From positions 3,728-67,727 of the forward strand of contig JAFVBG010000002.1 of the NCBI GenBank assembly GCA_017480095.1: a stretch of DNA of 64,000 bases, written 5' to 3'. How positions within the stretch are numbered: position 1 is the stretch's first letter; each line of letters opens with the position of its first letter. The DNA comes from Candidatus Saccharimonadota bacterium. GTDB lineage: Bacteria; Patescibacteriota; Saccharimonadia; Saccharimonadales; Saccharimonadaceae. The notes under the pieces are model-generated. The model had not been told where the DNA came from. It worked only from the letters and a program-made list of their open reading frames with translations, and did not search any database. The translations under genes and the position numbers were made by a program. Of this stretch, positions 36 through 57,158 are shown one piece after another.

Positions 36-1196
36 CTACTCATTTTTTGCCTCCGCTTCTTCGCTGAATAAGTTTAGATATTCTCTATATACCCATTTTT
101 GTGCATACGGCTTATCACCAGTTTTTATTGGCTCCAATATACCCATATCTTTCATGCGATCGATTGCTTTATATACTCCGCTTTGTTGATATCCGGTCCA
201 TTTTTGAATATCGGAAACACCCACGACTGGCATTTTATATAATCCAGTCAATATCTTGAGAGTAGCTTCTGATGCCACACGATTGAGTTTTTGAACTTTC
301 ATCATATCTCTTTCGCGTAGTTTCGTAATTTTTGCGCATGTTACGATGGCGGAATTAGCAATTTCAATTACACCATCAAGGAAGAAGTCAACCCATTCTT
401 CTACTTCGCCATTATGGTAACCGTTAAGCCGAGAGTAATAAACTTCTTGATATTTCTTAAAGTAAGATGACAAGTATAAAACTGGCGATTCTAGTAACTT
501 TTGTTGCCATAAATACATCGCAACAAGCATACGACCGGTTCTACCATTTCCATCATTGAATGGGTGAATGGTCTCAAACTGAGAGTGAATGAGTGCTGTT
601 TTTATTAGTGGTAGATAGTCGTCTTTGTCGGAGTTGATAAATAATTCTAAATCACCAAGTGAGCGTTTCATTTCAACAACGGTTGGTGGAACATATTTAG
701 CGTTATCTGGGCGTGTTCCACTAATCCAGTTTTGTTTTTTGCGAAATTCTCCAGGGTAAGAGAACTGTGTTGATCTTGCACCCTGCATTAGTTTTTCGTG
801 AAGTTCCTTGATAAATCTTAGGCTAAATGGAAATTCCTCGATTCGTTTTAGGCCGTAGTTTAAGGCTTTAATGTAGTGTAAAATATCATCAACGTCTTGT
901 GGAAGATCGACGCTCGGTTCGACATTCTCCCTCTCAATCGAGTCCATCATTGTTGCGTTCGTTCCTTCGATTTGACTTGAAGACGATGCGTCCTTCCTAA
1001 GAAACATTAAGATGAACCAATCTTTATCCGGTAGTAACTCTGTGATGCCGTCGAGTTTACCGAGGACGCGCATAGCTTCTGAATGTTTTTTGATCAGTTG
1101 ATCACTAAAAACAAACTTGTCCTTTGGTGGAAAAGGATCAGGGATAAAAGCCTTGTACCCCTCTGGTTGACTTATGTATTTTCCTACACTATTCAT
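36..1196 (-). CDS. Fic family protein (class II type, N-terminal inhibitory helix, probable C-terminal HTH)
   Basis: Fic motif HPFNDGNGRTGR; inhibitory (S/T)xxxE(G/N) motif SSQIEG. Start moved from 1235 to ATG 1196 because a promoter occupies 1226-1255. Confidence 0.9.
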   Translation of the reverse strand: MNSVGKYISQPEGYKAFIPDPFPPKDKFVFSDQLIKKHSEAMRVLGKLDGITELLPDKDWFILMFLRKDASSSSQIEGTNATMMDSIERENVEPSVDLPQDVDDILHYIKALNYGLKRIEEFPFSLRFIKELHEKLMQGARSTQFSYPGEFRKKQNWISGTRPDNAKYVPPTVVEMKRSLGDLELFINSDKDDYLPLIKTALIHSQFETIHPFNDGNGRTGRMLVAMYLWQQKLLESPVLYLSSYFKKYQEVYYSRLNGYHNGEVEEWVDFFLDGVIEIANSAIVTCAKITKLRERDMMKVQKLNRVASEATLKILTGLYKMPVVGVSDIQKWTGYQQSGVYKAIDRMKDMGILEPIKTGDKPYAQKWVYREYLNLFSEEAEAKNE

Positions 1197-1271
1197 ATCG
1201 TGGAACTTTCTTTTTACTTTTCCACATTTTATCATAAATCGTGGAAGTTTGTCAAGACTTTTCCACGATTT
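1197..1271 (-). promoter_or_regulatory. sigma70 promoter of fic overlapped by two tandem palindromic operators
   Basis: Minus-strand TTGACA (1255-1250), 18 nt, TG-a-TAAAAT (1231-1226). Palindromes ATCGTGGAA-N14-TTCCAC at 1197-1225 and AAATCGTGGAA-N14-TTCCACGATTT at 1236-1271. Confidence 0.65.
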
Positions 1272-1289: not shown

Positions 1290-2486
1290 TCAGATGACAC
1301 TATTTTCTGAAAAGGTAAGCAGTTTGTCGCGGTAATATTCGTATTGTTTATGGCGTGCTTTGATCTCCGCAGGAAGACCAGACACTATGTCGTTAGTTAG
1401 CTTGTCAAATTCGTCTAGCGTCGAGGCAATCTCTTTTTGTTTTTCCAGTGTAGGAATTATAAACGAATACTCCATTATAGCTGCTTTATCGCCTCGTGGC
1501 ATTTTTGAGCCCTTTGACTTACCATCATTGTATTCAAAGAGCTTTTCTGACGACAAAACATGATATAAATACCTACTATTGAGCTGTTCGAAGTCATTAC
1601 GTATAACGAGAACGTCGCCGCTTGCACCACCGGTGTTATTTGCGAACCATATCTTTCTTAGATATGGTCTAATATTGCCAATCAAGATATCTTCTGGCGA
1701 ATATTTTGTCCAATTTCCACTCTCTGGTATATGTTCGGAAGTGGTTTTACCGAGCTTGTTTTGAAGAAGATTGTCTACTCCGACAAAGGTATTTCCATCA
1801 AGCTCGCTAGACGATATCCTGGATTTCGAATATCCCGCAACCAAATTTAGTTGCACTAGAGTGCAACCAAAGATGTACTGGCGTAGCTTAGCTACTCCTC
1901 TCTCTCTCTCGGTGTCGCCGCCGACAGCTGCGTCGAATCTTAGGAGCCTATTACGATAGTACTCGTATTGCTTTTGACGCGCTTCGATCTCGGCAGGGAG
2001 TCCGATATTCAGATCGTTACAGACGGCGTCAAAATTATCTAGGACGTAAACAATGCGCTCTTGAATCTTTTTTGACGGAACCGGAATTGAAATATCTAGA
2101 ATCTCATCTTTTTTAAGGTTAGTCTGGTCGGTTCCGTTGTCGTAACGAAGAAGTTGAGGATTGCGGTTGAGAATGTAAAATAAATACTTATTTATTACTT
2201 TCTCATTATCTTTGTTGGTAAAGGCTCCAATTCGCTGATTAAGCGAATATCGGTCATCTTCGTCGATTAGTCTACACTTTGCGAGAGCTTTCCCGTTAGG
2301 GAGATCGCTCATGACTAGGCAGATGTCATCTTTGAATAGTGGGCAAATTTGAGAATCAGTGTATTTTGCCACTTTTCCATCCGTGGAGATATATTTTGAA
2401 TTTACGACTATGAATTGCCCATCCGGCACAATATTCTTCTCATGGCCTTTGCCATTTCTAAAATCCGCCAATTCACGAAGTGGCAA
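1290..2486 (-). CDS. hsdS: Type I restriction-modification specificity subunit HsdS, TRD2+TRD3 portion (in frame with the upstream TRD1 ORF)
   Basis: Two TRDs, each followed by the conserved helix LPAEIEARQKQYEYYRNRLL / LPAEIKARHKQYEYYRDKLLTF. The TTG start is probably not the ancestral start. Confidence 0.9.
   Translation of the reverse strand: MPLRELADFRNGKGHEKNIVPDGQFIVVNSKYISTDGKVAKYTDSQICPLFKDDICLVMSDLPNGKALAKCRLIDEDDRYSLNQRIGAFTNKDNEKVINKYLFYILNRNPQLLRYDNGTDQTNLKKDEILDISIPVPSKKIQERIVYVLDNFDAVCNDLNIGLPAEIEARQKQYEYYRNRLLRFDAAVGGDTERERGVAKLRQYIFGCTLVQLNLVAGYSKSRISSSELDGNTFVGVDNLLQNKLGKTTSEHIPESGNWTKYSPEDILIGNIRPYLRKIWFANNTGGASGDVLVIRNDFEQLNSRYLYHVLSSEKLFEYNDGKSKGSKMPRGDKAAIMEYSFIIPTLEKQKEIASTLDEFDKLTNDIVSGLPAEIKARHKQYEYYRDKLLTFSENSVI
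1898..1910 (-). repeat. (GA)6G simple sequence repeat at the TRD2/TRD3 junction of hsdS
   Basis: Plus strand CTCTCTCTCTCTC, encodes ERER right after the conserved helix. Confidence 0.8.
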
Positions 2487-2498
2487 CCATTCAACTTG

Positions 2499-2505
2499 CC
2501 CCCCC
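2499..2505 (-). repeat. G7 homopolymer at the TRD1/TRD2 junction of hsdS
   Basis: Plus strand C7; minus GAG GGG GGG CAA, positioned like the GA tract one TRD later. Confidence 0.6.
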
Positions 2506-2555
2506 TCGCCGGCTATATTTTCGAATGAGAGAAGATGGTCACGATAATGCTCGTA

Positions 2556-3086
2556 TTATTGTTTTCTCTTAGCGAGCTCCGCTTCCAGCTCCGTAAAACT
2601 GTTTAACATCCTGACGATTTCTTGCTGAATCTCGAGTGGCGGTACGGGAATTGTGTATTCCTTGCGAATTACACTAGGATGTGCCTTATGCACGTAATCG
2701 AATACTTTCTTACTCCACTCATTAGTGAGCGCAAAATAGAGGTATTTAATATCCATTATTTCTGGTTTGTTTACGGTTAGCCAGCCGCAAACATTCGTAA
2801 CTGAATATTTTGGCGCGTCACGGTAAAAGAATTTTCCGCCGCCATCAATACTCCACGACAGTCGCACATCTTCAAACATATAATCACCGTATGTGCCTAG
2901 TAAACCAGAGCCGACAGCAGAACTTGAATATATGGGATATTCGCCAGGGTTATCCTGAATATCCTTTTTGCTAATTACTTTTCCGCGACCTAGGGTAATT
3001 ACTCCGGAATCTTCCAGTTGCTCTAGAGTCTTATATTCAACGCCATTTGGGCATTTTTCTTTAATCAATTCATCGATTTTATTCAT
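2556..3086 (-). CDS. hsdS: HsdS TRD1 (half subunit), ended by an in-frame TAA inside the conserved helix
   Basis: MNKIDELIKEKCPNGVEYKTL start and IPVPPLEIQQEIV motif. Reading through TAA 2556-2558 gives KRKQ*YEHYRDHLLSFENIAGEGGQVEWLPLRELA with no further stop. Confidence 0.88.
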   Translation of the reverse strand: MNKIDELIKEKCPNGVEYKTLEQLEDSGVITLGRGKVISKKDIQDNPGEYPIYSSSAVGSGLLGTYGDYMFEDVRLSWSIDGGGKFFYRDAPKYSVTNVCGWLTVNKPEIMDIKYLYFALTNEWSKKVFDYVHKAHPSVIRKEYTIPVPPLEIQQEIVRMLNSFTELEAELAKRKQ

Positions 3087-3768
3087 TCCTGATACCTCCA
3101 GTCCTGAATGAAATATGTTTTTCTATAGAGTTATAGGGCTCATGAATAAACCACATTTCGTCATTATTAGCCGCGGAAACAAGTATATATGTTTTGTACT
3201 TATTATGGTCTGGTACCTTATTGATTATGGAAAGCAATTTCGCTTCGTCTATATATGCGAAACTGAACATGAACAGCCAGTATTCTTCAAAAAACTCATA
3301 TTCCGACATTAGCTTTATTTTTTCGGCAATTTTTTTCTCCATAATTTCATAAATGTTTTGAGTATCAAAATCAATAAGCCTACCAACTCCCGCGTCTCTG
3401 ATTTTTCCTGCAAAAATCCCCTTCTTGTCGGCTTTCTTTATGGTTCGCTTGAAGTCTTCGAGATCATTAGTCTTCTTATCTACTTCATCAATAGTTTTTA
3501 GGCTTATCATTTGGTTCTCGTCAATTAATCTTGTAACTTCAATCCCCAAATTAAGATCCTCACTTTGAATGTCCGGCCTCTCGATGTTTTTGCCATGTTT
3601 AAAATACTTTTTCATCATATGTTTACCATAAAGAACTGGTGTAGAAGAAGATGCTACTAGATGCGGGAGTGGTGGTGCATTTTCTATATCGTAAGATAGT
3701 GAGGTTAGAAGCTCGAAAGCTTTGTCTTCTGAATAATCTTTGTCCGTTAGGACTTTGTGCCAATCCAT
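3079..3768 (-). CDS. Hypothetical protein with PD-(D/E)xK-like motif, inserted between hsdM and hsdS
   Basis: AT-rich 230-aa ORF translationally coupled to both neighbours; ERPD-x8-GIEVT resembles a PD-(D/E)xK core. Confidence 0.6.
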   Translation of the reverse strand: MDWHKVLTDKDYSEDKAFELLTSLSYDIENAPPLPHLVASSSTPVLYGKHMMKKYFKHGKNIERPDIQSEDLNLGIEVTRLIDENQMISLKTIDEVDKKTNDLEDFKRTIKKADKKGIFAGKIRDAGVGRLIDFDTQNIYEIMEKKIAEKIKLMSEYEFFEEYWLFMFSFAYIDEAKLLSIINKVPDHNKYKTYILVSAANNDEMWFIHEPYNSIEKHISFRTGGIRNE

Positions 3769-3770
3769 CA

Positions 3771-5336
3771 CTAATCGCCCTCGATTTCTTCGATTATTTT
3801 ATTAATCTTCTGACGGAGTTCGTTCTCGCGAGCGACGATCTCTTTAAGTTCGGCATTGAGTTTCTTGATATCTACTTTTTCGCGAGTGTCTTCTGGTTCG
3901 ACATAGGTAGAAACTGAAAGATTGTAACCTTGTTCGGCTACTTCATCGTTAGGTACTAAACGAACGAGATGGTCGACGTCTTTGCGCTCTTTAACCCATT
4001 CGAGAATCTTCTCAATGTTTGCGTCGGTTAGCTTGTTGCTGTTTGTGACTTTGATAAATTCTTTGCTTGCATCTACGAATAGTGTCGAGTTCTTAGATTT
4101 ATTCTTTCGAAGAACCATGATGCATGTCGCAATGCTGGTACCATAGAACAAATTGTCTGGTAATTGAATAACGGCATCTACAAAGTTGTTATCTACTAAG
4201 TACTTGCGAATCTTTTGCTCAGCGCCACCGCGATACATAATACCTGGGAAACAGACGATTGCGGCCGCACCATTCGTGGCGAGCCAGCTAAGTGAGTGCA
4301 TAATGAACGCAAGATCAGCTTTCGATTTAGGCGCTAAAACACCAGCAGGAGAGAAGCGTTGGTCATTGATGAGAACTGGGTTACTCTCACCTTCCCAGTG
4401 GATTGAGTATGGCGGATTTGATACGATTGCCTCAAACGGTTCATCGTCCCAGTGCTGTGGATCTATGAGCGTGTCGCCGAGTGCGATATCGAACTTATCG
4501 TAGTCAATATCGTGAAGGAACATATTAATGCGGCAAAGGTTATAGGTTGTAATGTTGATTTCTTGGCCATAGAAGCCCTGGCGGACGTTGTCGCGGCCGA
4601 GAACCTTTGCAAATTTAAGGAGAAGTGAGCCTGAGCCACAAGCTGGATCATAAACTTTGTTTACGGATGTTTTACCCATTACTGCGAGCTTCGTAAGAAG
4701 TTCCGATACTTCTTGCGGAGTGTAGAATTCACCACCAGATTTACCGGCGCTTGATGCGTACATGCCCATGAGGAACTCGTAAGCGTCGCCGAATGCGTCG
4801 ATCGTGTTGTCTTGGTAATTACCGAGTCTCATATCGCCAACGCCATCCATAAGCTGAACAAGGTGGTCGTTGCGCTTTGCTACTGAGCTACCGAGCTTAT
4901 TGCTGTTAACGTCGAGGTCGTCAAAGAGACCTTTCATATCGTATTCAGAATCGTGGCCTTTTGCAGAGTCTTCAATGGAGTTTAGAGCTTTTTCGAGTGT
5001 TTCGTTTAAGTTTTCGTCGTTACGTGCGTTCTTACGGACATTCTTAAAAAGTTGGCTTGGCAGAATGAAGAAGCCTTTGGTATCTACCATTTCTTCGCGA
5101 ATCGTTTCGGCCTGTTCGTCCGGAATGCTAGCGTAATCGAAGTTTACATTGCCAGCTTTATGCTCGCCTTCGTTTATGTAATTCGTTAGGTTTTCTGAGA
5201 TAAAACGATAAAAGAGCATGCCAAGGATGTACTGCTTGAAATCCCAACCATCTACCGAACCACGAAGGTCGTTAGCGATATTCCAAATAGTACGATGTAA
5301 TTCTGCGCGCTCCTGTTCTTTTTTAGTGTCGGCCAT
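3771..5336 (-). CDS. hsdM: Type I restriction-modification N6-adenine methyltransferase subunit M
   Basis: [35 protein letters not shown] (motif I), AIVSNPPYS (motif IV). Confidence 0.97.
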
Positions 5337-5475: not shown

Positions 5476-5673
5476 CTAAAACTCTCGCCACTCAGTGCTT
5501 TCGCTACTCGGATTCGTTATAGCTATTTGCTTGAATTGACAATCGCCAGGATCTAGGACGAACTCGCCATCCTTGTATTTCTGCTCTGCTGTTTCGTAGG
5601 CCTCATCAGCGCTGTTAGCTTCGATTTCGAAGTCCTTAGCGACGGTTTCTTCTATCGTAATTGTATATTTCAT
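5476..5673 (-). CDS. DpnD/PcfM-like protein
   Basis: MKYTITIEET...EIEANSADEAYETAEQKYKDGEFVLD matches the recognised DpnD/PcfM pattern. Confidence 0.75.
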   Translation of the reverse strand: MKYTITIEETVAKDFEIEANSADEAYETAEQKYKDGEFVLDPGDCQFKQIAITNPSSESTEWREF

Positions 5674-6401: not shown

Positions 6402-7184
6402 ATGGAATACAAAGAAAAAGCTCTTGGTACCGGAAAGGTACGCGTCTACACTTTCGGCGACCTAAAATTGCACGCTTACGAAACCGGCGACGGCCTCGCG
6501 GATGAATGCTATGTTATTGAATCTGCTAATGAGCTCGTTGGTATTGAAATCCCGACTTTTGAAGCCAACATTAAAGAATACAAGGATTATATCGATACTA
6601 TCGGCAAACCACTCAATAATGTGTTTATTGATCTGCATCCGGTCGGCGCTAGCTTCTTTGATGGTGTTAAATTCATCGGTACAAAAGGTGCCAAAGAAGC
6701 AATCGCAAACGGCTCTACTCGCGGCACACTCAATGCACTTTCTGGTATTCCGGGTTTCGATAGCAAAGATACTGCAGAAATCTCTGAATTTGTCGATGGT
6801 AAAACTACGATTGACGGTGTTGAGTACGAAATCAAAGATTATGGCGATGAATACGATATCATCATTCCGGCGATGAATGTGGTCTATACCCATATGCTCG
6901 GCTCCATTGTTCATTCTATTGTTGGTGGCGTTGCTGGTGCGGACGCTATGCTCGAGAAACTCAATGGCTACAAAAAGGCTGGTTACGATCTAATCCTAAC
7001 CTCTCACTTTGTTCCGGAAGGTCAAGAAGCGGTTGACGCAAAGATTGCTTATATTGAGAATGAGAAGAAGATTGCAGGCGAGTCCAAGGATGCTGAGGAA
7101 TTTAAGGCTAAGATGAAAGAAGCTTATCCAGATTACCTCGGCGAGAACTATCTTGATATGTCCGCTGGGTTCTTCTTCGCCTAG
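6402..7184 (+). CDS. Metallo-beta-lactamase-fold-like hypothetical protein
   Basis: AAGGAG RBS; degenerate MBL-like segments (VFIDLHP, ILTSHFVPE); resembles a conserved gut-Firmicutes family. Confidence 0.55.
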   Translation: MEYKEKALGTGKVRVYTFGDLKLHAYETGDGLADECYVIESANELVGIEIPTFEANIKEYKDYIDTIGKPLNNVFIDLHPVGASFFDGVKFIGTKGAKEAIANGSTRGTLNALSGIPGFDSKDTAEISEFVDGKTTIDGVEYEIKDYGDEYDIIIPAMNVVYTHMLGSIVHSIVGGVAGADAMLEKLNGYKKAGYDLILTSHFVPEGQEAVDAKIAYIENEKKIAGESKDAEEFKAKMKEAYPDYLGENYLDMSAGFFFA

Positions 7185-8149
7185 GAATGGCGCTCATTAT
7201 TAAATAATGAGGTTAAGGTGTCGTCGGTCTTCGGCGACGCCTTTTTCTTGCCTTTAAGAGCGTTGTCTTTGCGAATCGTAACTATGTCGTGCGGCGTTAG
7301 CTCGCCAATTAGCATAGTTGAATCTGGATTATGGCGGCGCATTTGCTCGTTAATTAGATCTTCATTAAAGTTGGCGTAACAGTATTTACATCGGTGTCCA
7401 CAGGAGTTATATTCGCCAATATCTATCATCTGCACGCAGTGGCATTTACGTTCTTTGCGCGCTGTCCATTCTGGAAAATCTTTGCCAGTTAGCTCTATGG
7501 CTTTAGCGTGTGAAAGGCATTCTTCACCACAAAAACCATATTCAACGAGGTTCCTATCTTCAAAACAAGTCTGGACGGTCTGATTATGCTTTTTGGCCGA
7601 GGCGGAAAATCCCTCGCCAAGAGCTCGATATTCTTTCTCAGTGAATTCATGAAATCCGAGTTCACGTTCGTTCTTGCGGACATTAACGTATAAGTCGATG
7701 AAAGAAACGATAAAATGATTAACGACGCCGTCTAGCTCGGCGCAAAGCTTGTCAAAAGCTTTAAGGTGGTAGTCTAGCGTATATTTATCACTAATAAAGA
7801 TAGGATCGTAGCGAACATACATTCTGTCTGGACCAATCATTTTGGAAATCTTCTTAATATTCTCGATTGTGCGTTTCTTGTCCGGAACGTACGGTTCGAT
7901 ATCTTTTAAATAGCCGGTGAGGGTGACGTGAAAAAGAAAGGGCTGTTTAATTTCTGGCAAAAAGTCGATAATCGGTTCTGGATTTTTAGTGCAAAAGACG
8001 AAAGCGTCGACATCTTTAAACTGGATACGGCTAACTTGTGTAGGATTAAAAGGGTTGCGAACATCGACGAAGCCCTCTTTATAGCGTTTCTTGAACCACT
8101 CCGAATAAAAGGCAATAACGTCGGTGCGGCCAGAAACATTAAGAATCAT
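7181..8149 (-). CDS. DUF1848 domain protein (radical-SAM-like)
   Basis: MILNVSGRTDV.AFYSEWF N-terminus; C-terminal CGHRCKYCYAN (CxxxCxxC). Confidence 0.88.
   Translation of the reverse strand: MILNVSGRTDVIAFYSEWFKKRYKEGFVDVRNPFNPTQVSRIQFKDVDAFVFCTKNPEPIIDFLPEIKQPFLFHVTLTGYLKDIEPYVPDKKRTIENIKKISKMIGPDRMYVRYDPIFISDKYTLDYHLKAFDKLCAELDGVVNHFIVSFIDLYVNVRKNERELGFHEFTEKEYRALGEGFSASAKKHNQTVQTCFEDRNLVEYGFCGEECLSHAKAIELTGKDFPEWTARKERKCHCVQMIDIGEYNSCGHRCKYCYANFNEDLINEQMRRHNPDSTMLIGELTPHDIVTIRKDNALKGKKKASPKTDDTLTSLFNNERHS
7215..7247 (+). terminator. Intrinsic terminator of the MBL-like gene (overlaps the 3' tail of the DUF1848 gene)
   Basis: 12-bp stem AAGGTGTCGTCG/CGGCGACGCCTT followed by a T-run. Confidence 0.7.
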
Positions 8150-52958: not shown

Positions 52959-55900
52959 TTATTTTCTCGGTTTGCAAGTTTTTAGATCAATGACCTCTTC
53001 AAAAAGTCCAGTCGGAGATTGATTGATGAGAAAGGCGGAATCATATCTAAAAACATTATCGTTGAATTTGCCTTTACCAACAGTTCCAGCCTTAGGCACA
53101 AATTTAGAAAGATCAGCAGTGGTTGGGCCACAATTAAACACGTTAAGGAAATTATGCAATGTGAGCACTTGATCCTTTATTTCTAGCTCTTTAAAATCTT
53201 GAGCATGTGCTTGTATTTCATCAATCTTTCCTCCAAGCTCCGGCATTTTTCTGTATGCTTCTAATTTCTTTAGAAAAACATTAAGAAGTTCTTCATTTTT
53301 AGCCTTAGTTATGCCATCGCGTTTCTCATCAATGCAATATTTTCCTCGTAGTTCGATATCTTTCTTGGCCACACTTTCAATCTTTTTGACATAGGCACAC
53401 TCGTTTGCATTGAATATGACCTGGACCGCATGATAGAATCCTATTGCAACATCGCTCCCCTTACGTGAAATATGCAATGGAAAACCGTTTATTCTCATTA
53501 GTGATTTATAACCAATTACTGGAATAATGACCCTCCCATCTTTATAGTTTCTAGCGATATATTTGTCTAGTTCGTATTGATTGATTTGTGGGATTGGGAC
53601 AATTCTACGCTCAATGATACCTTTTCTCCCTACGCGTTCAATCAAGGAGAAGTGTGCACCTTTAAGCGAGTTATATCCACCGTATTTCTTCGGGTCCATA
53701 CCCTTTTTAGCCGGTAAAATGCCTTCGACGTTATCCGCCTTACGGACTAATTGCAAATCTGAAATTGCCCCCGATTCAACATAGTTCATTCTCGTCCAAA
53801 GAATGTCGTTGCGCTTCAGCGTATTGCTTACAATTTTAATTGTATCGGCATAATTCCAGCCATACATAATTGGCCCATTGCCCGGCTTATCCCGCCAAAG
53901 CACCCATGGATTAACTGACCAGTTTGCTTTTTGCTCTTCTTGGTTTCGAATCCACTTGTAAGGGTCAGCCGTAAACGTCTCATGTAACGCATTTCCAACA
54001 ACAATGTTTAAATACGCGTCCTTGGCGTGATGAAGGTCGTTGATCGCGCGCACTTTAATAAATTCCGGCATTTCTGGATGCAACAATCTATTCCCATCAT
54101 ATTTATCATACTGTTCTTTAGAGAACCAATGACGAAATTCCGAAACCTGCGATGCTTTACTCATTACTACTTTTGTATGTGGGTAGGCCTGCTGGAGTAA
54201 ATCTCGTATGGCTTTAATTGATTGGCTAGTTTCTACTAGCTGCCGCGCAGCAAAATTGCCCAGTTCTTCAGGCGTGAGTGGATTTGCGCGCGTTAGTCGA
54301 AGATACTTTTCTTTCGTAATGAGTTGATTACCAAGCAGTAATCCCCAGAAGCCATGTTGATTGCTGCGAATGCTATCTGATATAGGATAAGTGTTTGTTT
54401 TCTCCCGGTTTAATTCTGCCTTGACGAGAACCAAATTGCGCGTAATGCTATCATCCTTGGTTTTTGAGCGTGGATAGATGTGATCAATATCATACAAGGT
54501 TGTATTATTCAAATCTTCCAGGTTGATTGGCGTGCCACTGTAGGCGCATTTACCGAGCTGGGTAAAATACAAGTAAAGTTTCTTACTTTGCAAATCACGA
54601 TCTTCGTAACTATTTAATTCTTTTAAAAGTTCATCATATTCACCGTCTTTATTGATAGACTTATACAAATCCTCTAATTGAGTTTTACGGGACAGCTTAT
54701 AATTCCCTTTTTCCTTGGCGTCCTCACCGCGAGTAACCTCCAAGAAGATTTTCTTTGGTGCGGTTTTCTCGACCTTGACAAGTTCATTGACAATTTTAAT
54801 GGTCTGCCATACTGTGCGCTTGACGGCCGGTGAGCAATATAGATTGTTAACGTCTTGGTATGTAATTTTGGTTTCTTTGGATTTTTTCGGTGCATTAAAC
54901 TCATCTACAGCCTCAAAGAATCCAGCGCCTAGTAGTTCCATTAGATTCATATTTGTTTCATAAAGCGCCTCAATAATTGTATAATCAATACCGTTGATTT
55001 TTGCACGGATCCCGTTTAAGAATGTGCCAGAAAACTTTCCCCAGTCTTTTAGCGATAGCTTAGCTAGTTTCTTGGCCTCTTCCGTCGAGCATCCTAATAC
55101 CTCTTCAATTTTAGGTGATAAAATTTTTCGTTCTTCGCCAAGCACCGTGATTAAATTAATGGCTTCTTCAAGACTCTTCTGAGAATACTTCTTTGTATAA
55201 TCATCACCAAGAATCTTCCTAAAAGACAGATGCGTGGAAAGTTTGGGTAAAATCTTAACTTCTGATGTGCCAGCCAGTTCATCCTCTGGCGAAATGATAG
55301 AGTTTGCCACCAGAATATTGCGCAATTTCTTCAAAGTAATATTTCCTGACACTTCACCACTGGCAAAAATTTGGTCAAAGATGCGTTGCTTCAGCTGGGC
55401 ATCTTCGATCCGGTAGCCATTAATTTTGAGATTGTTAATCTCGTTTAGCACCATATTTTTTTGATAGAGTAGAGATGACTTCGGTAGTACATCTTCGCCA
55501 ATTAGATAGGTACACTGATTAGCCATACGCTGGATAAAGTTATTTGCTCTGGCATCCAACCCCACAAGCTGATTAAAATTCCATGGATAAATAAGTTCTT
55601 TAATCTCCTCGTCTGCCCATGAAAACTCACTTTTACCCCCTTCTACAATTGCACCATCCTTATTAAACTTGCGCTTGACGAGTGGACCACAATAGTACGG
55701 GATTTTAAAACTGTGTATACTCTCAATCTTTTTAGAAATCGTGTTATGTCTTTCGTCTTCGTTTTTATTGATTGCCCCAAACGCAGGGTAGTCATTTTCC
55801 AGCCTATTTAGAATCTGGCGTAGTTCATTGTAATGTAGCTGTTGCGGAATTGTACCTTTCGCCTGGCCACGCTGTTTTGGCAGAAGTTCAAAATCCTCCG

Positions 55901-57158
55901 CTCGTTCTATTAAGGATTTGATTTCAGGTGATTCTGGCAATGTTTCAAGTATTCTTTTGATTTCTTTGTTTATATCTTCTTGATTAACTGGCTTGGCAGA
56001 TTTTTGTCGCCCGCTCTTTTCCGTCGTGAACGCTTTGCCAATATACGCATTGTAATTTATCGTTTCGCCATTAGCTTTAAATATTCGTGCAAATAACTCT
56101 GGGTAAGGCTTTAAAATCTCCTTCAAATCTTTTAAATCTTTTTGGTGTTGATCATAGTTAGCAACCATTGCTTCGGAAATAGTTTTATGACTGCTCAATA
56201 AATTCGAGAGGATGCCATAATCATATATTTGCTTAGCCGAAATGATTAGATCCATACAACTCGTATCGCCAAGATCCTGTTCAATATCCGGTTGCTTTTC
56301 TTCAAAACTTCCGTTATCGAACGAATACTTCATTGCATCCTCATTTGGCTCGTCCACAAAGATTTTTTGAAGTGTGACGTTTGAGCCGACAAGAAGGCCG
56401 CATAGTTCGTCTTGACGCTTAGCTAGACTTTCTTCCATCTCATCGTCCTCAATAAAAATGAGCTCTTTTAGTTCTTTTCGTTTATCGCGTTTGCCTTTTC
56501 TCTTGTCTTTAACGATTTGTTCGACTTTCTCGGATACAGCATCAGAAATTCTAAAACCGAAGTTCTGCGCAATATTTATAAAGTCATCGAAAAGTAGATT
56601 AAAATCCGTATTACCGTCTTTGAGAGAACCTTCTATTAAAAAGTGCCCGCGATGTTTTAGAATATGATGGACCGCTAAGAAATAGAGCCGCAAGTCAAAA
56701 TGCTCTCCGTCGCAAAATTCAGTTTTTTCTGCATTACCCTTAATAATCGCATCCCTAAGATGCCAAATAGTTGGAAAAGCTTTATAGTATTCTTTATCCG
56801 TAAAAGTAGGTTCATTAAAAAGCGTATACTTATGCTGATTGATTTTTTCAGGACGATCTTCCAAAAGCAACATAGATTTACTGAGGCGCAGATAAAAATC
56901 TGGGTCAATTTTTGCCATTTCTGGTGCAAAAAGTTCCTCAAGAAGTTTTAGTCGAGCATGAGCGCGATGCCCGCGGCGACGGGCCGACCGGTGAGCGCGA
57001 CGCTCGGCCGCAGTATCAGCCTCGTCGAAGAGACGAGCACCCCAAAGAGTCTTACCTTTGGCCCGAAGAAGGTTATAGTTTTCATCAGTAACTGCCCAAC
57101 CCACGGATGATGTTCCGCAGTCTAGGCCAATATAATAATCTCTTGCACTTTTTGACAT
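52959..57158 (-). CDS. cas9: Type II-A Cas9, 1399 aa
   Basis: RuvC-I IGLDCGTSSVGWA, Arg-rich bridge helix, RuvC-II IFLEVTR, HNH DIDHIYPRS, RuvC-III HHAKDAYL. Confidence 0.98.
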   Translation of the reverse strand: MSKSARDYYIGLDCGTSSVGWAVTDENYNLLRAKGKTLWGARLFDEADTAAERRAHRSARRRGHRAHARLKLLEELFAPEMAKIDPDFYLRLSKSMLLLEDRPEKINQHKYTLFNEPTFTDKEYYKAFPTIWHLRDAIIKGNAEKTEFCDGEHFDLRLYFLAVHHILKHRGHFLIEGSLKDGNTDFNLLFDDFINIAQNFGFRISDAVSEKVEQIVKDKRKGKRDKRKELKELIFIEDDEMEESLAKRQDELCGLLVGSNVTLQKIFVDEPNEDAMKYSFDNGSFEEKQPDIEQDLGDTSCMDLIISAKQIYDYGILSNLLSSHKTISEAMVANYDQHQKDLKDLKEILKPYPELFARIFKANGETINYNAYIGKAFTTEKSGRQKSAKPVNQEDINKEIKRILETLPESPEIKSLIERAEDFELLPKQRGQAKGTIPQQLHYNELRQILNRLENDYPAFGAINKNEDERHNTISKKIESIHSFKIPYYCGPLVKRKFNKDGAIVEGGKSEFSWADEEIKELIYPWNFNQLVGLDARANNFIQRMANQCTYLIGEDVLPKSSLLYQKNMVLNEINNLKINGYRIEDAQLKQRIFDQIFASGEVSGNITLKKLRNILVANSIISPEDELAGTSEVKILPKLSTHLSFRKILGDDYTKKYSQKSLEEAINLITVLGEERKILSPKIEEVLGCSTEEAKKLAKLSLKDWGKFSGTFLNGIRAKINGIDYTIIEALYETNMNLMELLGAGFFEAVDEFNAPKKSKETKITYQDVNNLYCSPAVKRTVWQTIKIVNELVKVEKTAPKKIFLEVTRGEDAKEKGNYKLSRKTQLEDLYKSINKDGEYDELLKELNSYEDRDLQSKKLYLYFTQLGKCAYSGTPINLEDLNNTTLYDIDHIYPRSKTKDDSITRNLVLVKAELNREKTNTYPISDSIRSNQHGFWGLLLGNQLITKEKYLRLTRANPLTPEELGNFAARQLVETSQSIKAIRDLLQQAYPHTKVVMSKASQVSEFRHWFSKEQYDKYDGNRLLHPEMPEFIKVRAINDLHHAKDAYLNIVVGNALHETFTADPYKWIRNQEEQKANWSVNPWVLWRDKPGNGPIMYGWNYADTIKIVSNTLKRNDILWTRMNYVESGAISDLQLVRKADNVEGILPAKKGMDPKKYGGYNSLKGAHFSLIERVGRKGIIERRIVPIPQINQYELDKYIARNYKDGRVIIPVIGYKSLMRINGFPLHISRKGSDVAIGFYHAVQVIFNANECAYVKKIESVAKKDIELRGKYCIDEKRDGITKAKNEELLNVFLKKLEAYRKMPELGGKIDEIQAHAQDFKELEIKDQVLTLHNFLNVFNCGPTTADLSKFVPKAGTVGKGKFNDNVFRYDSAFLINQSPTGLFEEVIDLKTCKPRK

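What the first reader, a model, noticed from the sequence alone, without database searches (positions are those of the whole stretch)
1290..3086. Three-TRD hsdS with a slippage tract at each TRD junction and one in-frame stop
Seen: the two hsdS ORFs share one frame (599 codons) broken only by TAA at 2556-2558 (KRKQ*YEHYRD, probably CAA>TAA). A G7 tract follows TRD1 and a (GA)6G tract follows TRD2, each just after the conserved helix. Known: SSRs between TRDs switch HsdS between truncated and full-length specificities (e.g. NgoAV); normal HsdS has two TRDs. Inference: a multi-state switch giving 1-, 2- or 3-TRD proteins, currently locked to TRD1 (a symmetric site) unless TRD2-3 reinitiates.
Basis: partly seen in the sequence, partly recalled or inferred. 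Interest (0 to 1): 0.7.

Follow-up and report, generated by a model that had tools for sequence, protein, structure and literature searches.

The report
Phase-variable three-domain hsdS, here broken
This is the DNA-specificity gene of a Type I restriction-modification system in a ruminant-gut Saccharibacteria genome: it has three recognition domains, a hypervariable GA repeat that switches it between two- and three-domain proteins (a design already described in other bacteria), and, in this strain only, a stop-codon mutation.

Summary
On the minus strand, 3086..1290 is one 599-codon frame with three Methylase_S domains. It is broken only by TAA (2558-2556). A G7 tract follows TRD1/CR1 and a (GA)6G tract follows TRD2/CR2.

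- **Stop codon.** At least 17 other samples or assemblies carrying near-identical or related alleles read CAA. TAA is therefore a lineage-specific nonsense mutation seen only in one study.
- **GA tract.** It is a real hypervariable switch. Related alleles carry 6, 7, 8, 9, 10, 11 or 12 units. About half are out of frame, and those end 2-3 codons after the tract, giving a canonical ~400-aa two-TRD HsdS with an intact TRD3 in another frame.
- **G7 tract.** It is not supported as a regular switch. It occurs no more often than chance predicts, is interrupted in 7 lineages, and shows a length change in only one 2.7x contig.
- **Prior description.** Three-TRD "extended" hsdS genes with a repeat between TRD2 and TRD3 were described by Atack et al. 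(FASEB J 2020).

I also found the same architecture in at least 22 species-level genomes of several phyla, with about ten different repeat units. Verdict: a new member of a known kind, in a Candidatus Saccharibacteria genome and carrying a nonsense mutation here. Interest is moderate.

The parts
3771..5336 (-). hsdM (521 aa), N6-adenine methyltransferase subunit
   Evidence: Pfam N6_Mtase 2.3e-115 and HsdM_N 5.6e-23
3079..3771 (-). ORF230, an unknown gene inserted between hsdM and hsdS. It overlaps both neighbours by a few bases. Relatives carry a RhuM-family gene in this slot.
   Evidence: No Pfam or PADLOC hit; RhuM in L004-L006
2556..3086 (-). hsdS 5' ORF (176 aa): TRD1 (about 2655-3086) plus the first 32 residues of the 45-residue CR1 segment, ending at the TAA
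   Evidence: module boundaries
2556..2558 (-). In-frame TAA stop inside CR1. It is CAA (Gln) in all related alleles outside study P1.
2575..2592 (-). 12-nt repeat (AGCTCCGCTTCC on the + strand; encodes the ELEA unit of the CR1 helix). The window has 1.5 copies; most relatives have one more copy (...TELEAELEAELT...).
   Evidence: 12-nt insertion after 2574 in X2, X3, X4, X8, X10, X14, X16, X25 and in L004-L006
2499..2505 (-). G7 tract in the CR1-TRD2 linker (codons GAG GGG GGG). It is not conserved as a tract.
1290..2486 (-). hsdS 3' ORF (398 aa from TTG 2486): TRD2 (about 2097-2519), CR2 (1932-2096), linker + TRD3 (1473-1931), CR3 (1293-1472), stop 1290-1292
   Evidence: gene callers also call it as a separate 398-aa gene
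1898..1910 (-). (GA)6G simple sequence repeat in the CR2-TRD3 linker (encodes ERER). It is the 2-TRD/3-TRD frame switch. TAG and TAA lie in the two alternative frames immediately downstream.
   Evidence: and the allele series
36..1235 (-). fic gene (SoFic-type) between hsdS and hsdR. hsdR (1033 aa, EcoR124_C domain) lies just beyond window position 1.
   Evidence: Pfam Fic and Fic_N; PADLOC SoFic 1.3e-106; hsdR seen in L001

Best explanation
The region is the specificity gene of a Type IC (EcoR124-like) restriction-modification operon: hsdM - ORF230 - hsdS - fic - hsdR. The host is a ruminant-gut Candidatus Saccharibacteria genome.

The gene belongs to the "extended", three-TRD class of phase-variable hsdS. 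TRD1-CR1-TRD2-CR2 is a complete canonical HsdS. A linker carrying a GA dinucleotide repeat joins it to an add-on module, TRD3-CR3.

Slippage of the GA tract sets the frame. With 6, 9 or 12 units a ~600-aa three-TRD protein is made. With 7, 8, 10 or 11 units translation stops 2-3 codons after the tract and a canonical ~400-aa two-TRD protein is made. By analogy with Mannheimia haemolytica, the two proteins should give the M2S methyltransferase and the R2M2S nuclease different target sequences, with TRD3/CR3 displacing TRD2/CR2. That step is inferred, not shown here. A separate 12-nt (ELEA) repeat in CR1 varies in copy number and should change the spacer length, as in EcoR124I versus EcoR124II (also inferred).

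In this particular strain the gene has in addition a CAA>TAA nonsense mutation in CR1 and one fewer ELEA repeat. The annotated pair of ORFs (176 aa + 398 aa) is therefore a recently broken three-TRD gene, not a designed pair. The specificity subunit is most likely defective or altered in this lineage. The G7 tract is probably an ordinary Gly-Gly codon run and not a second switch.
For: **Architecture**
- Three Methylase_S stretches lie in one frame.
- Residues 114-384 align end-to-end with EcoR124II HsdS residues 112-396 of 404.
- A structure model of the intact relative P0002 best matches EcoR124I HsdS 7bst_A, TM 0.68.
- HsdR carries the EcoR124_C domain.

**GA switch**
- Tract lengths: 6 (window, X1, X5), 7 (X30), 8 (X8, X19, X29), 9 (X3, X15, X18), 10 (X13), 11 (L004, X25), 12 (L005, L006). 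Contigs break inside the tract in X2, X7, X14 and X28.
- L004 has the same TRD1 and TRD2 (95% and 99% aa identity). It carries (GA)11, ends ...TERERERERSS*, and keeps TRD3 intact in the +1 frame.
- Simulation shows that every out-of-frame length ends in EE* or RSS*, giving 396-404 aa.

**Generality**
- Many 585-625-aa relatives cover 99% of the query.
- Among the 80 GTDB (species-representative genome collection) loci, 15 have an intact three-TRD ORF and 6 are split 2+1 exactly at a non-triplet repeat. L004 is a further split example and L005/L006 a further intact one. Repeat units seen are GA/AG, ACAG/CAGA/GACA/AGAC, GAAC, AAGAC, CAGAA, ACAGT, GCACGCC, GCAGACA, CTGCAAG and C9.

**Literature**
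- Atack et al. (PMC7383803) describe the same design in M. haemolytica (G[n]; TRD1+2a gives CAACN4GT, TRD1+2a+2b gives CAACN5TC) and in F. nucleatum (AAGAC[n]).

**Nonsense mutation**
- TAA is found only in study P1; CAA everywhere else.

**Organism**
- UvrA is 99% identical to a protein named Candidatus Saccharibacteria bacterium.
Against: - No raw reads were available, only assembled contigs. Tract variation is shown between samples, not within a clone.
- No methylome or protein data exist, so the change of specificity is inferred from other species.
- The window's own tract, (GA)6, is the shortest seen, so its slippage rate may be low.
- The structure model is of moderate confidence (pLDDT 69, pTM 0.45) and cannot show which helices pair.
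- One sample (X11) does show G8, so rare slippage at the G tract is not excluded.
- Whether the 176-aa fragment or a product re-initiated at TTG 2486 has any activity is unknown.
Confidence: 0.8

Rival explanations
1. One reading: a three-state switch. G-tract slippage gives a TRD1-only half-HsdS that homodimerises on a palindromic site. GA-tract slippage gives the 2- or 3-TRD forms.
For: - G7 sits in the CR1-TRD2 linker, where SSR tracts in hsdS genes generally lie (between TRDs; PMC7383803).
- In silico, G8 or G5 gives a 197-198-aa product that keeps the entire CR1, like the functional EcoR124I S(NT) 1-215 (PMC3320862).
- One sample (X11) has G8.
- Atack et al. note that G[7] tracts can phase-vary.
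Against: - G7 is not more frequent than chance.
- The tract is broken by substitutions in 7 lineages (L004 GGT; X7, X9, X10, X13, X14, X20 GAG) and is 3 nt shorter in P0004.
- At least 11 samples keep exactly G7 while the GA tract differs in almost every one.
- The G8 call rests on one 151-nt contig at 2.7x.
- None of the other three-TRD genes has a non-triplet repeat at this junction.
Confidence: 0.1
2. In this strain the two ORFs work as a designed split system. The 176-aa TRD1 fragment acts as a half-S. A 398-aa TRD2-TRD3 protein, started at TTG 2486 and using the G-rich run as its ribosome-binding site, acts as a second, complete S subunit. Together they give new specificities.
For: - The downstream ORF is otherwise intact, and gene callers call it.
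- GAGGGGGGG lies 12 nt upstream of the TTG.
- Separately expressed N- and C-terminal halves of EcoDXXI HsdS reassemble, and one CR helix can replace another (PMC3874165).
- CR2 and CR3 are the same type (47% identical).
Against: - The stop is derived and confined to one study.
- The 176-aa product lacks the nearly invariant QYExYRDxLL end of the helix.
- The TTG start removes the start of the TRD2 module (QVEW), the counterpart of the segment that precedes TRD1 (CPNGVEY).
- The 12-nt spacing to the TTG is longer than the spacing I recall as usual for ribosome-binding sites (own knowledge, not tested here), and there is no expression evidence.
Confidence: 0.15
3. Assembly artefact: two separate hsdS genes (or alleles) collapsed or chimerically joined, with the stop codon a sequencing error.
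For: The metagenome contains other hsdS genes sharing the conserved-region sequence: contigs with 24-48-nt partial matches and apparent "joints" 1974>2575 in X1, X5 and X6.
Against: - A contig from a different assembler (Logan, 6870 nt, depth 19.6) matches this region with no differences.
- The 176-aa ORF is recovered exactly in an independent sample (L003), and another run of the study (X6) matches 2488-2896, which includes the stop, with no differences.
- Relatives L004-L006 and many 585-625-aa database proteins have the same three-module order.
- The "joints" are short matches to conserved helices of unrelated hsdS genes, not deletion alleles.
Confidence: 0.02

Closest known systems
Extended three-TRD phase-variable hsdS of Mannheimia haemolytica (G[n]) and Fusobacterium nucleatum (AAGAC[n]); Atack et al., FASEB J 2020, PMC7383803
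   Same: - Order TRD1 - TRD2(a) - SSR - TRD3(2b) in one gene.
- A non-triplet SSR sits exactly between the second and third TRD.
- The out-of-frame state gives a full-length two-TRD HsdS; the in-frame state gives a three-TRD HsdS.
- Tract length differs between strains.
- TRD1 and TRD2 are more diverse than TRD3. Here TRD3 is 76-80% conserved among close relatives, while TRD1 and TRD2 are swapped (23-34%) in P0002, P0004 and P0005.
   Different: - The repeat unit is a GA dinucleotide.
- The host is a Candidatus Saccharibacteria (CPR) bacterium from ruminant gut, not a pathogen.
- Extra genes (ORF230 or RhuM, SoFic) are embedded in the operon.
- This copy also carries a nonsense mutation in CR1.
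- No methylation specificities are known here.
EcoR124I / EcoR124II (Type IC) HsdS
   Same: - Closest solved structure and sequence.
- The central helix carries a 12-nt / 4-residue repeat whose copy number differs between alleles (TAEL x2 versus x3 there; ELEA-type units here).
- HsdR has the EcoR124_C domain.
   Different: EcoR124 HsdS ends after CR2 (404 aa). Here a linker, a third TRD and a third helix follow.
NgoAV (Neisseria gonorrhoeae) hsdS and engineered half-S proteins (EcoR124I delta50 and S(NT), EcoDXXI::Tn5)
   Same: Truncation after TRD1 can give a homodimeric S that recognises a palindrome. The G7 tract here lies between TRD1 and TRD2, where SSR tracts in hsdS genes generally lie (PMC7383803). 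That the NgoAV tract itself is a homopolymer at this position is from my own recall, not from a paper read here.
   Different: - The tract here is not conserved and shows almost no length variation.
- The actual truncation in this genome is a point nonsense mutation inside CR1 that removes the end of the dimerisation helix. EcoR124I S(NT) spans 1-215 including the whole central conserved region, and the EcoDXXI Tn5 insertion lay in the C-TRD, so both retain that helix.
Helicobacter pylori JHP1422 three-TRD HsdS (Krebes et al. 2014, PMC3936762)
   Same: A single S subunit with three TRDs, each followed by a helical connector. In H. pylori different TRD pairs were shown to give two specificities.
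   Different: JHP1422 arose by duplication (TRD2 = TRD3), and no SSR switch is mentioned in the passages I read. Here the three TRDs are unrelated (20-22% identity) and an SSR controls inclusion of the third.

Membership tests
Type IC restriction-modification system (EcoR124 family) | HsdR with the EcoR124-type C-terminal domain, plus hsdM and hsdS in one operon | tested here: met
   L001 (the contig that holds the window) encodes HsdR of 1033 aa with HSDR_N, ResIII, T1R_D3-like and EcoR124_C domains downstream of fic. HsdM N6_Mtase 2.3e-115.
Type IC restriction-modification system (EcoR124 family) | HsdS homologous to EcoR124 HsdS, with a 4-residue repeat in the central conserved helix | tested here: met
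   phmmer against PDB: best hit EcoR124II HsdS, 1.1e-27, query 114-384 = chain 112-396. Foldseek best hit 7bst_A. 12-nt repeat copy-number polymorphism.
Type IC restriction-modification system (EcoR124 family) | Subunit complementation with other Type IC systems | not testable with these tools
   Requires genetics.
Extended (three-TRD) SSR-switched hsdS (Atack et al. 2020) | Three TRDs encoded in one reading frame | tested here: met
   Three Methylase_S stretches in the 599-codon frame. The frame is fully open in relatives P0002, P0004 and P0005.
Extended (three-TRD) SSR-switched hsdS (Atack et al. 2020) | Non-triplet SSR located between TRD2 and TRD3, long enough by the authors' criterion (at least 5 dinucleotide units) | tested here: met
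   (GA)6G at 1898-1910. Criterion quoted.
Extended (three-TRD) SSR-switched hsdS (Atack et al. 2020) | Tract length differs between strains, and both in-frame and out-of-frame alleles exist | tested here: met
   6, 7, 8, 9, 10, 11 and 12 units. Seven samples are out of frame.
Extended (three-TRD) SSR-switched hsdS (Atack et al. 2020) | The out-of-frame state yields a complete two-TRD HsdS | tested here: met
   L004 product of 406 aa ending RSS*. Simulation gives 396-404 aa for all out-of-frame lengths.
Extended (three-TRD) SSR-switched hsdS (Atack et al. 2020) | The two protein forms give different methylation specificities; switching occurs within a clonal population | not testable with these tools
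   Only assembled contigs were available, with no raw reads and no methylome.
NgoAV-type truncation switch (SSR between TRD1 and TRD2) | Length-variable homopolymer between TRD1 and TRD2 | tested here: inconclusive
   G7 is present. G8 appears once at 2.7x (X11). The tract is unchanged in at least 11 samples, interrupted in 7 lineages and not beyond chance.
Recombinational hsdS shufflon / inverton (SpnD39III-like) | Several hsdS copies or half-genes with inverted repeats and a nearby recombinase | tested here: not met
   Only the CR2 and CR3 motifs of this gene are found in a six-frame scan of the 64 kb. No recombinase appears among the operon genes.
JHP1422-type three-TRD HsdS by internal duplication | Two of the three TRDs are identical duplicates | tested here: not met
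   TRD pairs are 20-22% identical.

The most novel reading that the evidence does not exclude
The locus might combine three independent length-variable elements in one specificity gene of a reduced-genome episymbiont (Saccharibacteria). These would be the GA tract (2 versus 3 TRDs), the ELEA 12-nt repeat (spacer length) and, rarely, the G tract (TRD1-only half-S). Together they could give six or more methylation/restriction specificities from a single gene.

More broadly, an SSR in the CR2-TRD3 linker would be a widespread design across at least six phyla, arising repeatedly with unrelated repeat units. That would be far more common than the two species in which it was described.
Probability: 0.15. 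Interest if true: 0.65.

Novelty: new member of a known kind. Interest (0 to 1): 0.4.

Why it matters
Phase-variable Type I systems change both phage defence and genome-wide methylation (phasevarions). The extended three-TRD form has been reported in two pathogens, and how three TRDs resolve into one bipartite specificity is still open.

This locus adds three things:
- a natural allele series (GA 6-12 units; ELEA x2 or x3; swapped TRD1 and TRD2; one nonsense allele) in uncultured ruminant Saccharibacteria;
- evidence that about half of the sampled populations sit in each phase;
- a survey hint that the same linker SSR design recurs in Firmicutes, Bacteroidota, Fibrobacter, Spirochaetes, Actinobacteria and Proteobacteria, with about ten different repeat units.

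For annotation, adjacent "hsdS" ORFs of ~400 aa + ~210 aa, or 176 aa + 398 aa, should be read as states of one gene.

Tried and rejected
- **Assembly collapse.** Rejected, because independent assemblies agree.
- **Apparent deletion joints** (1349>2536 and 1974>2575) in X1, X5 and X6. These are 22-28-nt matches of other hsdS genes' conserved helices on unrelated contigs, not alleles of this gene.
- **Within-sample heterogeneity.** All 40 runs found are kept only as contigs, so read-level tract distributions could not be measured. Contig breaks inside the tract (X2, X7, X14, X28) fit either long or mixed tracts and cannot be told apart.
- **Structure prediction.** The AlphaFold2 model of the intact relative P0002 has pLDDT 69 and pTM 0.45.
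- **Second SSR at the CR1-TRD2 junction** in 15 other three-TRD genes: no non-triplet repeat was found.
- **Shufflon.** There are no further hsdS fragments in the window.
- **Follow-up papers** on extended hsdS: only Atack et al. was found.
- **Metatranscriptome X38.** One 341-nt contig lies over TRD2 and the intact G7. It is too little to say anything about expression.
Full report
**1. What is in the sequence**

The feature lies on the minus strand. Translating 3086..1290 gives 599 codons in one frame with a single internal stop...ELAKRKQ*YEHYRD..., TAA at 2558-2556. ORF listing splits it into a 176-aa ORF (2556-3086) and a 398-aa ORF that starts at TTG 2486.

Pfam Methylase_S matches three separate stretches of the read-through (E 5.8e-51). 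Using the conserved QYEYYR helix motif as landmarks, the modules are:

| Module | Window coordinates |
|---|---|
| TRD1 | 2655-3086 |
| CR1 | 2520-2654 |
| TRD2 | 2097-2519 |
| CR2 | 1932-2096 |
| linker + TRD3 | 1473-1931 |
| CR3 | 1293-1472 |

The three TRDs are 20-22% identical to one another. CR2 and CR3 are of the same "C-terminal" type (...GLPAEIxARxKQYEYYRxxLLxF, 47% identical). CR1 is the "central" type with a 4-residue repeat.

The G7 tract (+ strand C7, 2499-2505) lies in the CR1-TRD2 linker (GEGGQ). The (GA)6G tract (1898-1910) lies in the CR2-TRD3 linker (TERERG). The GA tract is unique in the 64 kb, with 0 expected by chance. A G7 tract is expected about twice by chance.

**2. Context and organism**

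The operon on the minus strand is:
- a DpnD/PcfM-like gene;
- hsdM (3771-5336);
- ORF230, unknown (3079-3771);
- hsdS;
- a Fic protein of the SoFic defence family (36-1235; PADLOC 1.3e-106);
- just beyond the window start, hsdR with an EcoR124_C domain.

The closest solved HsdS is EcoR124II. Query residues 114-384 align with residues 112-396 of its 404. So TRD1-CR1-TRD2-CR2 is already a complete Type IC HsdS, and TRD3-CR3 is an add-on.

UvrA in the window is 99% identical to a protein named Candidatus Saccharibacteria bacterium. The runs that hold the sequence are sheep, goat, bovine and other gut metagenomes.

**3. The stop codon**

On contigs of other public runs, position 2558 reads G on the + strand, that is CAA on the coding strand. 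This holds in X2, X3, X4, X7, X8, X9, X10, X13, X14, X25, X28, X29 and X30 and in the fetched relatives L004, L005 and L006.

TAA is present only in the window's own study: X1 and X6, and L001-L003, which come from at least two samples and two assemblers. It is therefore a real, derived, lineage-specific nonsense mutation.

The same lineage also has one fewer copy of a 12-nt repeat in CR1 (window ...TELEAELAK...; relatives ...TELEAELEAELTK...). By the EcoR124I/II precedent, such a change alters the spacer of the recognition site by one base pair (PMC3874165). That is inference here.

**4. The GA tract is a real frame switch**

In alleles that are otherwise 90-99% identical in the flanks, the tract lengths are:

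| GA units | Where | Frame relative to TRD3 |
|---|---|---|
| 6 | window, X1, X5 | in frame |
| 7 | X30 (14x depth, 26-kb contig) | out of frame |
| 8 | X8, X19, X29 | out of frame |
| 9 | X3, X15, X18 | in frame |
| 10 | X13 | out of frame |
| 11 | L004, X25 | out of frame |
| 12 | L005, L006 | in frame |

Contigs also break inside the tract in X2, X7, X14 and X28.

L004 is the clearest case. Its TRD1 and TRD2 are 95% and 99% identical to the window's. With (GA)11 the frame ends ...TERERERERSS*, giving a 406-aa two-TRD product (P0001, a cluster of 13 sequences). TRD3-CR3 continues intact in the +1 frame and is called as a separate 210-aa gene.

A simulation on the window sequence shows that every out-of-frame length stops 2-3 codons after the tract (EE* or RSS*). 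The products are 396-404 aa, the size of a canonical HsdS. So about half of the sampled populations are in the "two-TRD" phase and half in the "three-TRD" phase. In-frame lengths simply add or remove Glu-Arg pairs in a linker that the structure model predicts with low confidence.

**5. The G7 tract is not supported as a switch**

- It is replaced by GAGGGTGGG in L004.
- It carries a G>A substitution (GGG>GAG) in X7, X9, X10, X13, X14 and X20.
- It is one Gly codon shorter in P0004.
- It is exactly G7 in at least 11 other samples, although the GA tract differs in almost every one of them.
- The only frame-shifting variant is G8, in one 151-nt contig at 2.7x depth (X11).
- None of 15 other three-TRD genes has a non-triplet repeat at this junction.

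In silico, G8 or G5 would give a 197-198-aa TRD1 + full CR1 protein. The idea is therefore mechanistically possible, but the evidence is thin.

**6. The architecture is widespread and already described**

A protein search with the read-through returned many 585-625-aa HsdS proteins covering 99% of the query. They include a Streptococcus mitis protein and clusters seen on up to 91 contigs.

A scan of one genome per GTDB (species-representative genome collection) species returned 80 loci.
- 15 of them have an intact three-TRD ORF. The hosts are Erysipelotrichaceae, Eubacteriaceae, Lactobacillus, Acutalibacteraceae, Peptoniphilus x3, Fibrobacter, Spirochaetia, Negativicutes, Limimorpha, Streptococcus x3 and Lachnospiraceae.
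- Six more are split 2+1 exactly at a repeat: Faecalibacterium (AGAC)11, Paratractidigestivibacter (CAGAA)11, Lachnoanaerobaculum (CAGA)11, a horse Lachnospiraceae (GACA)14, Succinivibrio (CTGCAAG)7 and Coprovivens (AAGAC)22.
- The earlier-fetched relatives L005/L006 (intact) and L004 (split) are further examples.
- In the intact genes the CR2-TRD3 linker carries (ACAG)12-16, (GAAC)7, (GCACGCC)3-6, (GCAGACA)6, (AG)8 or C9. Only three of them (Fibrobacter and two Streptococcus) lack a repeat.

Atack et al. (FASEB J 2020, PMC7383803) described exactly this "extended hsdS" design.
- In Mannheimia haemolytica the repeat is G[n]. REBASE methylomes give TRD1+2a = CAACN4GT and TRD1+2a+2b = CAACN5TC.
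- In Fusobacterium nucleatum the repeat is AAGAC[n].
- They suggested that the third TRD displaces the second, and they called for a survey of its extent.

Krebes et al. (PMC3936762) showed a three-TRD HsdS with dual specificity in H. pylori. In the searchable library I found no later survey.

**7. What the broken allele in this window probably does**

The 176-aa product keeps TRD1 and 32 residues of the 45-residue CR1 segment. It lacks YEHYRDHLLSF, whose counterparts are invariant or nearly so in 40 relatives.

Functional half-S proteins in the literature retain the whole central helix: EcoR124I S(NT) 1-215, and EcoDXXI with Tn5 inserted in the C-TRD. Delta50 is also described there as a truncated S whose helix dimerises with itself (PMC3320862; PMC3874165). 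So "locked to a symmetric TRD1 site" is possible but unproven.

The downstream ORF could re-initiate at TTG 2486, which has GAGGGGGGG 12 nt upstream. That would give a TRD2-TRD3 protein with two C-terminal-type helices. There is precedent for helices substituting for each other, but no evidence here.

The simplest reading is a recent loss or alteration of the S subunit in one lineage. Such a loss is harmless to the cell because it abolishes both restriction and modification. The rest of the operon is intact.

**8. Verdict**

G7 as a switch is weak, and "three TRDs are abnormal" is outdated.
- The feature is a new member of a known kind, an extended SSR-switched hsdS. Its specifics are a GA dinucleotide repeat, a Saccharibacteria host, a CR1 repeat polymorphism and a lineage-specific nonsense mutation.
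- The most useful by-product is the indication that the linker SSR design is much more widespread than reported.

Noticed in passing
window 36-1235 (-): The Fic-domain gene sitting between hsdS and hsdR matches the SoFic anti-phage defence family (PADLOC 1.3e-106). The same fic insertion is present in relatives L004-L006.
   Followed up: partly
window 3079-3771 (-): A 230-aa ORF is wedged between hsdM and hsdS and overlaps both. It has no Pfam or PADLOC hit. Relatives carry a RhuM-family gene in exactly this slot, so the slot looks like a swappable cargo position inside the Type I operon.
   Followed up: partly
window 2575-2592 (-): 12-nt repeat in the CR1 helix (ELEA unit): 1.5 copies here and 2.5 copies in most relatives. 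Contigs break at the repeat in X7. This is analogous to the TAEL repeat that sets spacer length in EcoR124I/II.
   Followed up: partly
L005 about 4765-4775 and L006 (hsdM): hsdM of these relatives is called as 448 + 85 aa, because TGGG is TGGGG (+1 G) relative to L004. The change is seen in two independent assemblies, so it may be a real frameshift that inactivates the methyltransferase.
   Followed up: no
window 52959-57158 (-), 7181-8149 (-), 5476-5673 (-): Other defence-related genes lie in the same 64 kb of this Saccharibacteria genome: a 1399-aa Cas9, a DUF1848 protein (PADLOC RTasDUF1848, 1.2e-33) and a DpnD/PcfM-like small protein next to hsdM.
   Followed up: no
window 1865-1910, run X28: In X28 several contigs end in the GA tract and depth rises to about 42. 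One 692-nt contig shares 1865-1908 and then continues into unrelated sequence. Another TRD3 allele, or another hsdS gene, seems to share the tract and its flank.
   Followed up: no
window 2498-2505, run X11: A single 151-nt contig (2.7x) carries G8 instead of G7. This would truncate HsdS after a complete CR1 (198 aa).
   Followed up: partly
window 2194-2534, run X38: A metatranscriptome contig (341 nt, 5 mismatches) covers TRD2 and the intact G7 tract. This is weak evidence that a close relative's hsdS is transcribed.
   Followed up: no
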